UHGV virus genome: UHGV-1344453
DNA length: 10,449 nt
Direction: 5' to 3' (one strand)
Origin: a virus
Shown piece after piece: positions 9,800 to 9,956 of this stretch. The translations under genes and the position numbers were made by a program. The notes beneath the pieces were generated by a model. That model was not told where the DNA came from. It saw only the letters and a program-made list of their open reading frames with translations, and made no database searches. The number at the start of each line of letters is the position of its first letter. The stretch's first letter is position 1.

Positions 9800-9860
9800 A
9801 TAACGGGTTATCCGTAATCATCCACCAGCTTGATAACGGATAGCCGAAAAATGATAACGG
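9800..9860. repeat. Cluster of ATAACGG-containing repeats (TGATAACGG x2 direct, one further ATAACGG, one inverted TTATCCGT/ACGGATA pair)
   Basis: ATAACGG at 9800-9806, 9833-9839 and 9854-9860. Inverted pair at 9808-9815 and 9836-9842. Lies 160-220 bp from the inferred junction with the chromosome. Confidence 0.5.
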
Positions 9861-9899
9861 TTAAGCAAAACTGCCAGCAAATTTCCCTTTTGTTTGTTA

Positions 9900-9956
9900 T
9901 TGTTCGTCGTTGTTCGTAGAGCTTCAACAAAATGTGTGGTCAGTTGTGTGGTCAGT
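9900..9956. repeat. Two tandem duplications near the element end: TTGTTCGT x2 (10-bp period) and TGTGTGGTCAGT x2 (perfect 12-bp tandem)
   Basis: TTGTTCGT at 9900-9907 and 9910-9917. TGTGTGGTCAGT at 9933-9944 and 9945-9956. Confidence 0.6.

What the first reader, a model, noticed from the sequence alone, without database searches (positions are those of the whole stretch)
9800..9956. Direct and inverted short repeats close to the junction: candidate integrase/excisionase arm sites
ATAACGG-containing repeats (9800-9860) and a perfect 12-bp tandem TGTGTGGTCAGT x2 (9933-9956) lie within ~70-220 bp of the inferred junction at ~10022. That is the region where tyrosine-integrase arm-type and accessory-factor sites are expected in an attR.
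Basis: inference. Interest (0 to 1): 0.4.

Follow-up and report, generated by a model that had tools for sequence, protein, structure and literature searches.

The report
Integrase arm sites beside thiM junction
The 12-bp tandem repeat is most likely the integrase arm-binding site of a P4-type phage satellite inserted in front of thiM, which is ordinary and expected biology, while the ATAACGG repeats belong to a separate block next to a packaging (cos) site and are probably not integrase sites.

Summary
Both repeats are real and sit at the stated coordinates, and the junction is at 10022/10023. The window is the right ~10.4 kb of a capsid-forming PICI-like satellite. It is inserted in the thiM leader at the published rcnR_thiM site, whose core is AGAAATACCCGTAT.

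The interval covers two different modules.

1. Window 9867-10022 is the integrase-specific P arm.
- TGTGTGGTCAGT x2 (9933-9956) lies 85 bp from the core centre.
- In full-length relatives a co-oriented copy lies 147 bp on the other side of the core, just upstream of int.
- Phage P4 has annotated "attP arm sequence repeats" in the same geometry (75/134 bp), and a doubled motif was published for HE-PICIs (81/132 bp).
- Other integrase clades carry their own doublet at the same positions.
- Two elements have an AlpA 97% identical to the thiM type's but a different integrase, and they carry that integrase's doublet. The doublet therefore tracks Int, not AlpA.
- Next to the doublet are three 10-bp-phased TTGTTCG repeats (9890-9919). 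The same triple precedes the capsid operon, so these are candidate AlpA/Vis sites.

2. ATAACGG x3 lies in a block (9757-9866) found in 909 E. coli genomes whatever the integration site.
- It has no copy in attL.
- Two of its three copies vary between relatives.
- It lies 67-136 bp downstream of a phiP27-type cos homologue.

This is a new member of a known kind, of low to moderate interest.

The parts
9933..9956 (+). Doubled 12-bp motif TGTGTGGTCAGT x2. It is the P-arm copy of the integrase arm-type site pair, centred 85 bp from the core centre.
   Evidence: Searches show the perfect tandem. Searches show a second co-oriented copy in attL of relatives, 147 bp from the core and 37-60 bp upstream of the int start. 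Searches show the P4 annotated arm repeats with the same layout. One search gives the HE-PICI doubled motif at -81/+132. One search shows that the motif tracks the integrase clade, not AlpA.
9890..9919 (+). Three 10-bp-phased repeats, TTGTTTGTTA / TTGTTCGTCG / TTGTTCGTAG. They are candidate sites for the AlpA/Vis-type directionality factor and regulator.
   Evidence: In the full element L001 such phased triples occur only in attL, in attR and upstream of the capsid operon. They co-occur with AlpA proteins of the L001/L003 type, including in elements with a different integrase. Binding is inferred, not shown.
9890..9959 (+). A 70-bp cassette (TTGTTCG triple plus doublet) that is directly repeated in the other arm (attL) of related elements.
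   Evidence: window 9890-9959 is 98.6% identical to L001:3178-3247 and to L008:4380-4449. One search shows a 60-bp exact block shared by attL and attR of L001.
9867..10022 (.). Integrase-specific P arm of the attP, now the element side of attR.
   Evidence: only 65 of 5426 genomes carry this part, against 909 that carry the adjacent block. In all seven such loci examined in genomic context (L001, L003, L008, L009; H41, H42, H81) it lies next to thiM. Searches show a sharp homology break at ~9864-9866 between integrase types.
9997..10009 (+). TATCAACTGATAA, a one-mismatch match to the IHF consensus WATCAANNNNTTR, between the doublet and the core. It is a candidate bending site.
   Evidence: Read directly from the sequence. 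The exact consensus is rare in the window. This is inference only.
10023..10036 (.). Core identity block AGAAATACCCGTAT, shared by attL, attR and attB. The crossover lies inside it.
   Evidence: The same block is shown in capitals for 'rcnR_thiM.EcCI224' in the supplement of PMC10111431.
9757..9866 (.). Satellite-specific conserved block, rich in inverted repeats, that contains the three ATAACGG copies. It is independent of integrase type.
   Evidence: 909 genomes, many loci. (34 IMG/VR loci). (absent from phages). (folding z about -3.4 on both strands, weak covariation). (no second copy within the islands).
9800..9860 (+). ATAACGG x3, at 9800, 9833 and 9854. Copy 3 (GATAACGGTTAA) is conserved, while copies 1 and 2 are variable in relatives.
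   Evidence: One search gives copy 1 as 7/17, copy 2 as 5/17 and copy 3 as 17/17 among loci of the thiM type.
9695..9756 (+). Homologue of the phiP27/ST64B-type cos region. The annotated 10-nt cos of phiP27 (CGCCCGCCCC) aligns to window 9724-9733 (TGTCCGCCCC).
   Evidence: One search shows a P27-like cos 92-220 bp upstream of the conserved block in most satellite loci.
10023..10117 (+). The 3' remainder of the thiM TPP riboswitch and leader. The aptamer is truncated by the insertion.
   Evidence: One search gives 36.5 bits against a gathering score of 54.3, with P2/P3 missing. One search gives 71.2 bits for the intact site in the empty locus L002 and nothing above threshold in the occupied locus L001.
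10118..10449 (+). The 5' part of thiM (hydroxyethylthiazole kinase), which is host DNA.
   Evidence: annotation of the matching genomes.
2823..2848 (+). TTGTGCGTGG / TTGTTCGTGG / TTGTTC phased triple, after a terminator-like hairpin and upstream of the capsid operon. It is the same motif as in the att arms.
   Evidence: The equivalent sites are L001:10876-10905 and the L008 site, and in L033 and L018.

Best explanation
The interval covers two adjacent but functionally different modules at the right end of a P4/PICI-type satellite. The satellite is a capsid-forming PICI integrated at the rcnR-thiM site.

(1) Window 9867-10022 is the P arm of a P4-type attP. Its doubled 12-bp motif TGTGTGGTCAGT x2 is one of two pairs of arm-type sites. 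The other pair sits in the P' arm, just upstream of int, outside the window. The N-terminal arm-binding domains of the integrase tetramer are proposed to bind these sites while the catalytic domains act at the core AGAAATACCCGTAT 85 bp away. The arms would be bent by a host factor, with a candidate IHF site at 9997-10009. The int-proximal pair probably also serves for autorepression of int, as in P4.

The three 10-bp-phased TTGTTCG repeats just outside the doublet (9890-9919) are most likely bound by the island's AlpA/Vis homologue. That protein would then act both as a directionality factor at att and as a regulator of the capsid operon, which carries the same triple.

(2) The ATAACGG repeats belong to a 110-bp, inverted-repeat-rich block (9757-9866). 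The block is common to satellites regardless of integrase. It follows a phiP27-type cos homologue (cut site at about 9724-9733). My best guess is that it is a satellite-specific packaging-recognition flank, like a cosB. It is not a recombination site.

Shown by comparison: the junction, the core, the duplication of the cassette in both arms, the geometry, the tracking with the integrase clade, and the homology to cos. Inferred: every protein-DNA contact.
For: - Junction and core.
- Element identity: primase with P4-type TGTTCACC iterons, SSB, HK97-type capsid, protease, portal, HNH, TerS and TerL.
- Doublet in both arms, co-oriented, in L001, L003, L008, L009, L031 and L040.
- Distances from the core centre: -85/+147 for the thiM type and -88/+145 for the smrA type (both coordinates); about -93/+127 for the tRNA-Ile type; -75/+134 for P4 from the record's own 'attP arm sequence repeat' features; -81/+132 published for HE-PICIs.
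- Each integrase type has its own doublet: GGTGTAGTTAAT, GTGTACCCAA, GGTATCCTATA, TGTATTGCA, GTGTAGCTTAA.
- All four E. coli satellite integrases scanned carry PF13356 Arm-DNA-bind_3 plus PF00589.
- Discordant case: L020 and L029 have an AlpA 97% identical to that of the thiM-type L001, but an integrase of the smrA clade and the smrA doublet.
- TTGTTCG triples occur only in both arms and upstream of the capsid operon. They accompany the L001/L003-type AlpA across integrase types.
- These AlpA proteins are 43-46% identical to P4 Vis.
- The ATAACGG block is in 909 genomes at many loci, against 65 for the arm. It has no copy in attL. Copies 1 and 2 are variable.
- The adjacent 9695-9756 is 84% identical to the annotated cos region of phiP27 and matches the end of the ST64B record.
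Against: - No binding data exist for any of these sites.
- attL of this particular element is not in the window. The second doublet is seen only in relatives whose attR arms are 86-98% identical to the window's.
- Int and AlpA usually travel together, so the assignment to Int rests on one recombinant lineage (L020/L029), plus P4 literature that I recall but could not read here.
- The link between TTGTTCG and AlpA could simply reflect co-inheritance of neighbouring DNA. In P4, as I remember it, the Vis boxes lie between the core and int, not outside the doublet on the distal arm.
- For the ATAACGG block, the distance from cos varies (92-220 bp), about a dozen loci have the block without a recognisable P27-type cos, and the phages themselves have nothing like it. 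The packaging role is therefore weakly supported.
Confidence: 0.7

Rival explanations
1. The doubled 12-bp motif is bound by the AlpA/Vis-type excisionase, not by the integrase. Directionality factors typically bind tandem direct repeats about one helical turn apart.
For: The HE-PICI paper leaves open whether Int arm domains, AlpA or another protein binds its doubled motif. RDF sites are typically direct repeats one helical turn apart (abstract of PMC7498355). AlpA differs between the thiM and smrA types about as much as Int does, 61-68% against 67-68%.
Against: L020 and L029 carry an AlpA 97% identical to the thiM type's, yet they have the smrA-clade integrase and the smrA doublet. L018 has an AlpA only 78% identical but keeps the thiM integrase (95% over its C-terminal part; the N-terminal domain is off the contig) and the thiM doublet. 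The motif occurs symmetrically on both arms, four half-sites for a tetramer, as in the annotated P4 arm repeats. RDF sites are normally confined to one arm.
Confidence: 0.15
2. One reading: the ATAACGG repeats are also arm-type or accessory-factor (Xis, IHF or Fis) sites of this attR.
For: They lie 160-220 bp from the core, directly next to the integrase-specific arm in every element examined. The spacing of copies 2 and 3 is 21 bp, two helical turns. A factor shared by all satellites or supplied by the host could explain independence from the integrase type.
Against: The block is shared by elements with different integrases and sites. It is not repeated in attL. Copies 1 and 2 vary among elements that use the same site. 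Some elements (L006, L013, L030) lack copy 3 altogether. No conserved IHF consensus is present, from my reading of the alignments.
Confidence: 0.12
3. The ATAACGG block is a structured RNA, either the 3' UTR of the late operon or a small RNA, and not a DNA site. The heptamer repeats are by-products of its stems.
For: Folding energy is well below shuffles on both strands, with z of -3.47 and -3.39. The inner hairpin TATGGGG/CCCCATA is replaced by different hairpins in L008/L015 and is kept through two double changes in L039. No + strand terminator is predicted between terL and thiM.
Against: The covariation term is about zero, and only 2 of 25 pairs show compensatory changes, both in a single sequence. 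Equal z-scores on both strands point to DNA palindromes. The best-conserved 46 bp (9819-9864) survives in elements that lack its predicted pairing partner. There is no Rfam match.
Confidence: 0.15
4. The short repeats have no function. The tandem would be a replication-slippage duplication and the ATAACGG cluster a chance occurrence.
For: Some 7-mer occurring three times within 61 bp arises in about 5% of simulated windows. Copies 1 and 2 of ATAACGG are not conserved.
Against: A perfect 12-bp tandem arose in 1 of 1000 simulations. It is conserved in all 17 thiM-type loci, duplicated in attL, and paralleled by clade-specific doublets at the same geometry in P4 and four other clades.
Confidence: 0.03

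Closest known systems
Bacteriophage P4 attP and its 'attP arm sequence repeats' (record NC_001609; Pierson & Kahn 1987, cited in PMC7286903)
   Same: The order is distal doublet, core, proximal doublet, int. The doublets are 12-bp tandem units, co-oriented, 75 and 134 bp from the core centre, against 85 and 147 bp here. The integrase has an arm-binding N-terminal domain. The excisionase, Vis, is 43-46% identical to the AlpA proteins of these islands. The primase-associated TGTTCACC iterons are also shared.
   Different: The motif sequence differs: TTGGGGGCAT in P4 against TGTGTGGTCAGT here. The integrases are only 22-24% identical. P4 has a third, inverted copy at the int start. Here a 70-bp cassette, not only the doublet, is duplicated in both arms. 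The target is a riboswitch leader rather than a tRNA-Leu gene.
Doubled motif tgTGTATTGCantgTGTATTGCa of helper-embedded PICIs (PMC10111431, section 'Attachment sites')
   Same: It is a tandem with a 12-bp period and a TGTGT-type 5' half. There are two co-oriented copies, at -81 and +132 bp from the attP centre. The elements have the same gram-negative PICI organisation of int, alpA, pri and late zone.
   Different: The integrase clade, motif sequence and target sites differ. That paper reports the motif as unique to HE-PICIs and leaves the binding protein open. Here the same architecture appears with clade-specific sequences in at least four more clades, and one recombinant lineage points to Int as the binder.
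EcCI224, the reference PICI at the 'rcnR_thiM' site (supplement of PMC10111431)
   Same: The attL and attR flanks and the identity block AGAAATACCCGTAT are the same.
   Different: Only the junction sequences are given there. The text found in that paper and its supplements does not mention arm motifs or the TPP riboswitch for this site.
Phage lambda attP P arm (P1, P2, X1, X2, F, H1, H2), from general knowledge
   Same: The principle is the same: arm-type sites on both arms bound by the N-terminal domain of Int, bending-protein sites between arm and core, and directionality-factor sites as phased direct repeats.
   Different: Lambda has single sites (P1, P2) on the P arm and three on P', with a different fold of arm-binding domain. 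Its int gene points outward. Here and in P4 there are two symmetric doublets, and int points inward from attL.
cos sites of phiP27 and ST64B (HNH-dependent, P27-family TerS) and the two-cos arrangement of EcCICFT073 (PMC6092414, PMC6739421)
   Same: Window 9695-9756 is 84% identical to the phiP27 cos region. Satellites keep a phage-like cut site but have their own flank, as described for the cosB of EcCICFT073. This window also has two cos-like sites.
   Different: The ATAACGG flank has no phage counterpart, and its role in packaging has not been tested. EcCICFT073 uses lambda-type cosN together with Rpp.

Membership tests
Arm-type integrase binding sites of a P4-type attP | Lies on the element side of the junction, within about 200 bp of the crossover core | tested here: met
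   The doublet at 9933-9956 lies 66 bp from the core at 10023-10036, and the junction is confirmed at 10022/10023.
Arm-type integrase binding sites of a P4-type attP | The same motif is present on both arms (P and P'), co-oriented, at fixed distances from the core | tested here: met
   This was seen in relatives, because attL is not in the window: L001, L003, L008, L009, L031 and L040. The geometry of -85/+147 matches P4 at -75/+134 and HE-PICIs at -81/+132.
Arm-type integrase binding sites of a P4-type attP | The cognate integrase has an N-terminal arm-DNA-binding domain | tested here: met
   PF13356 (E 1.9e-18) plus PF00589 in the L001 integrase, and the same in the smrA, yicC and tRNA-Ile types.
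Arm-type integrase binding sites of a P4-type attP | The motif sequence covaries with the integrase and not with other element proteins | tested here: met
   Six clade-specific doublets, P4's included. L020/L029 combine a thiM-type AlpA (97%) with a smrA-clade integrase and the smrA doublet. This rests on one recombinant lineage.
Arm-type integrase binding sites of a P4-type attP | Direct binding by the N-terminal domain of Int, and requirement for recombination | not testable with these tools
   This needs EMSA or footprinting and attP mutagenesis.
Arm-type integrase binding sites (applied to the ATAACGG repeats) | Specific to one integrase type and present on both arms | tested here: not met
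   The block occurs in 909 genomes at many sites and with several integrase types. It is absent from attL and from the rest of the islands. Copies 1 and 2 vary among same-site elements.
Recombination directionality factor (Xis/Vis/AlpA) sites, applied to the TTGTTCG triple at 9890-9919 | Direct repeats phased about one helical turn apart | tested here: met
   Three units at exactly 10-bp spacing.
Recombination directionality factor (Xis/Vis/AlpA) sites, applied to the TTGTTCG triple at 9890-9919 | For a dual-function RDF such as P4 Vis, 186 Apl or P2 Cox, the same motif also occurs at a regulated promoter | tested here: met
   The same phased triple lies upstream of the capsid operon: window 2823-2848, L001 10876-10905, and in L008, L018 and L033. 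In L004-type elements a triple lies between int and alpA.
Recombination directionality factor (Xis/Vis/AlpA) sites, applied to the TTGTTCG triple at 9890-9919 | Located between the arm-type sites and the core on one arm only | tested here: not met
   Here the triple lies outside the doublet and is present on both arms. A further triple lies near the core in attL only, at about L001:3105-3140.
Recombination directionality factor (Xis/Vis/AlpA) sites, applied to the TTGTTCG triple at 9890-9919 | Binding by the RDF and stimulation of excision | not testable with these tools
   This needs purified AlpA and excision assays.
cos site of P27/HK97-type HNH-dependent terminases, applied to 9695-9866 | Sequence homology to an experimentally annotated cos cut site | tested here: met
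   84% identity over 62 nt to phiP27. The annotated 10-nt cos aligns to window 9724-9733.
cos site of P27/HK97-type HNH-dependent terminases, applied to 9695-9866 | The flanking recognition region (here the ATAACGG block) is shared with the phage or sits at a fixed distance from the cut site | tested here: not met
   Homology to the phages stops at 9756-9759. The distance from cos to the block varies from 92 to 220 bp, and some loci lack the cos.
cos site of P27/HK97-type HNH-dependent terminases, applied to 9695-9866 | Cleavage at this site and dependence of packaging on it | not testable with these tools
   This needs end-sequencing of packaged DNA and transduction assays.
TPP riboswitch RF00059, applied to the thiM leader at attR | A complete aptamer that scores above the Rfam gathering threshold | tested here: not met
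   36.5 bits against a threshold of 54.3, with P2/P3 replaced by island DNA. Intact sites score 71.2 bits.

The most novel reading that the evidence does not exclude
Every gram-negative PICI or P4-like integrase clade uses its own doubled 12-bp arm motif at a fixed geometry of about -85/+145. In this clade the doublet is fused to AlpA-type phased repeats in a 70-bp cassette. The cassette is duplicated on both arms, and the repeats recur in front of the capsid operon, so a single protein (AlpA) would couple excision to late-gene activation. Separately, the ATAACGG block would be a satellite-universal packaging signal, independent of the integrase, that lets unrelated satellites exploit P27-type helper terminases.
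Probability: 0.25. Interest if true: 0.5.

Novelty: new member of a known kind. Interest (0 to 1): 0.3.

Why it matters
The result maps the recombination sites of a widespread E. coli satellite family at a published integration site, and it gives precise targets for mutagenesis. It extends the "doubled motif" reported as unique to HE-PICIs into a general P4/PICI attP architecture with clade-specific sequences, and it offers comparative evidence that the integrase, not AlpA, reads the doublet. It also separates the recombination arm from a neighbouring block next to cos, which could otherwise be annotated wrongly. None of this changes how tyrosine integrases are understood. The most biologically interesting point lies just outside the finding: this satellite splits the thiM TPP riboswitch.

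Tried and rejected
- Rfam scan of the whole window: only the truncated TPP element and spurious miRNA and snoRNA hits.
- Sigma-70 promoter scan of 9380-10449: none found. There is one weak terminator on the minus strand at 9780-9763. An outward promoter in the ATAACGG block (TTGATA-17-GATAAC) was considered and rejected, because the -10 is poor and the -35 is not conserved in relatives.
- ORFs over the region (9566-9817 +, 9439-9711 -, 9818-10087 -): no Pfam or PHROG hits. The last one crosses the junction, so it cannot be a conserved gene.
- Exact scan for the doublet in one genome per species: a single unrelated hit in a Massilia MAG, so it gave no comparative data.
- IHF and Fis consensus in the ATAACGG block: no conserved match by my reading. 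The only exact IHF consensus in the window is at 9574-9586.
- RNA structure for the block: low energy but no convincing covariation.
- DUF1441 protein of the L003-type satellites as a possible Rpp homologue: no PDB match by sequence.
- Search for a second copy of the ATAACGG block inside the islands: none.
- Literature on P4 Int and Vis footprints (Cali 2004, Piazzolla 2006): not held in the library. What I say about them is from memory.

Full report
**The observation.** ATAACGG is at 9800, 9833 and 9854. A perfect tandem TGTGTGGTCAGT x2 is at 9933-9956. Homology to the E. coli chromosome begins at window 10023 in essentially every complete genome, so the junction at ~10022 is right. A perfect 12-bp tandem arose in 1 of 1000 simulated windows. 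By contrast, some 7-mer occurring three times within 61 bp arose in about 5% of them. The tandem is therefore clearly non-random, and the ATAACGG cluster only marginally so. A third repeat lies between the two and was not reported: three 10-bp-phased TTGTTYG units at 9890-9919.

**Context.**
- The window is the right ~10.4 kb of a capsid-forming PICI-like satellite. It encodes:
  - a P4 alpha-like primase/helicase (partial) followed by TGTTCACC iterons;
  - SSB;
  - an HK97-type capsid, protease and portal;
  - head-completion and adaptor proteins;
  - HNH, a P27-family TerS and TerL.
- The right flank is thiM with the 3' part of its TPP riboswitch.
- A full-length relative in E. coli SM107 (L001) shows the layout rcnR - attL - int - alpA ... 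terL - attR - thiM, about 15.3 kb long.
- attL, attR and the empty site share the 14-bp block AGAAATACCCGTAT.
- This is the site printed as "rcnR_thiM.EcCI224" in the supplement of PMC10111431, so the integration site is already on record.

**Two modules, not one.** BLAST of the element-side 301 bp (9722-10022) against 5,426 E. coli genomes splits it cleanly.
- The first 143 bp, up to ~9864, occur in 909 genomes at many chromosomal positions.
- The whole stretch occurs in only 65. All seven examined in genomic context lie next to thiM.
- Alignments of elements with different integrases confirm a sharp break just after GATAACGGTTAA.
- The ATAACGG repeats therefore lie in an integrase-independent block, and the 12-bp tandem lies in the integrase-specific arm.

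**The tandem is an arm-type site pair.**
- In L001, L003, L008, L009, L031 and L040 the same doublet occurs a second time, co-oriented, 10-15 kb upstream, in attL 37-60 bp before the int start codon.
- Measured between centres, the doublets lie 85 bp on one side of the core and 147 bp on the other.
- The P4 record annotates 12-bp "attP arm sequence repeats" as doublets 75 and 134 bp from its core, in the same order relative to int.
- PMC10111431 describes a doubled motif at -81/+132 in HE-PICIs and leaves the binding protein open.
- Satellites with other integrases carry their own doublet at equivalent positions:
  - GGTGTAGTTAAT x2 at the smrA site (-88/+145);
  - GTGTACCCAA x2 at yicC-dinD;
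  - GGTATCCTATA-GGTATCCT at tRNA-Ile;
  - TGTATTGCA in L030;
  - GTGTAGCTTAA in L039.
- All four satellite integrases tested have the PF13356 arm-binding domain.
- Int and AlpA differ to a similar degree between the thiM and smrA types, so simple covariation cannot separate them. L020 and L029 do separate them. Their AlpA is 97% identical to that of the thiM-type L001, yet they have a smrA-clade integrase and the smrA doublet.
- Conversely, L018 keeps the thiM integrase (95% over its C-terminal part; the N-terminal domain is off the contig) and the thiM doublet with an AlpA only 78% identical.
- The doublet therefore follows Int.
- From memory, not from a source read here: in P4 the N-terminal part of Int is sufficient for autorepression of Pint. 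That fits the int-proximal doublet.

**The TTGTTCG triple.**
- Window 9890-9959 is 98.6% identical to the attL block of relatives. A 70-bp cassette, made of the triple, a 13-bp spacer and the doublet, is duplicated on both arms.
- Within the whole L001 element, phased TTGTTCG triples occur only in attL, in attR and upstream of the capsid operon. The window equivalent of the last is 2823-2848, after a terminator-like hairpin.
- The triples accompany AlpA of the L001/L003 type even when the integrase is of the smrA clade (L020/L029). Elements with the more distant L004-type AlpA have TTGTTCC units instead, plus a phased triple between int and alpA.
- AlpA is an activator needed for PICI induction (PMC6092414). 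These AlpA proteins are 43-46% identical to P4 Vis, which the P4 record annotates as "excisionase and transcriptional regulator".
- I therefore assign the triple to AlpA, with moderate confidence. Co-inheritance of adjacent DNA is an alternative explanation. The placement outside the doublet is also atypical for a directionality factor.

**The ATAACGG block.**
- It is not repeated in attL or elsewhere in the islands.
- Among 17 thiM-type loci, copy 1 is intact in 7, copy 2 in 5 and copy 3 in all 17.
- Some elements lack copy 3.
- The adjacent 9695-9756 is 84% identical to the cos region of phage phiP27. That phage's annotated 10-nt cos aligns to 9724-9733. The same stretch also matches the last bases of the ST64B record.
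- A P27-like cos lies 92-220 bp upstream of the conserved 46 bp in most satellite loci.
- Homology to the phages stops at ~9756 and no phage has the block. The block is therefore satellite-specific and sits on the side of cos where a phage has terS.
- By analogy with the PICI-specific cosB of EcCICFT073, I favour a packaging-recognition role. The variable distance and the loci without a recognisable cos weaken this.
- The block folds well on both strands but shows almost no covariation, which points to DNA palindromes rather than an RNA.

**Verdict.** The feature is a new, clade-specific instance of a known attP architecture. The site itself is already catalogued. The general P4/PICI doublet rule and the Int-versus-AlpA discrimination are modest additions. 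Interest is low to moderate.

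Noticed in passing
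window 10023-10117; L001:2989-3092: The satellite splits the thiM TPP riboswitch inside the aptamer, at the CUGAGA / J3-2 region. At attR the remnant scores 36.5 bits, against 71.2 for intact sites. thiM and thiD therefore lose both their promoter and TPP sensing. At attL a promoter-like match (TTTACA-17-TACCAT) and the 5' half of the aptamer now point into the P' arm and int. No mention of this was found in the papers searched.
   Followed up: partly
L009:19419-28369: In strain 19KM1776 a second island, with a different 1308-bp integrase, sits between the satellite and thiM. It is inserted after ...GCCAGCGTAGGG and carries a replacement copy of the 5' riboswitch, so an intact TPP riboswitch (71.2 bits) is restored in front of thiM. 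Two elements target the same leader, and only one of them preserves it.
   Followed up: partly
window 7342-7378 and 9695-9756: The window has two cos-like sites. One is a diverged copy at the phage-like position between HNH and terS (CCGACCACCTCCTCAAATTTTTA). The other, after terL, is a phiP27-like copy. Many related satellites also carry an exact lambda cosN (GGGCGGCGACCT) 1.5-2 kb upstream of the conserved block, so these satellites seem to keep cos sites for several helper families.
   Followed up: partly
window 9485-9645: There is an iteron array: GCGGGTT x3 direct, an AT-rich spacer with a perfect IHF consensus at 9574-9586, then AACCCGC x3 inverted. Across 41 loci this array and the P4-type TGTTCACC iterons are mutually exclusive, and in the two annotated loci that carry it (L001, L004) the primase is DUF927-type. 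The exception is this window, which has both. That suggests a mosaic element carrying an orphan origin-like array.
   Followed up: partly
window 1320-1500: A cluster of (AC)TGTTCACC / GGTGAACAGT repeats lies just after the primase gene. They are identical to the P4 'ori type 1 repeat' TGTTCACC of ori/crr and are the likely replication origin of this element.
   Followed up: partly
window 3009-4224: The major capsid gene is split into two frames, with a frame change at about 3746-3754, whereas the L001 relative has one intact 389-aa gene. This is either a pseudogene or a sequencing error. If real, this cf-PICI could not build its own capsids.
   Followed up: partly
window 1519-1562: A run of 44 N (a masked stretch or an assembly gap) lies between the iteron region and the next ORF.
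   Followed up: no
window 9818-10087 (- strand): An 89-aa ORF is annotated as a hypothetical protein in RefSeq relatives (L001:18328-18597). It starts in the thiM leader and runs across the att core into the P arm. It has no family hits and is almost certainly a spurious call.
   Followed up: partly
L020:1-280: This IMG/VR contig starts with a contiguous attP-like arrangement (P-arm doublet, core, P' arm, doublet, int) and ends with an attR. That suggests tandem satellites or a captured circular junction.
   Followed up: no
L007:4718-4739: The only exact match to the 22-nt doublet in one genome per species is in a GC-rich Massilia MAG, between two unrelated ORFs. It is unrelated to the satellite.
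   Followed up: yes
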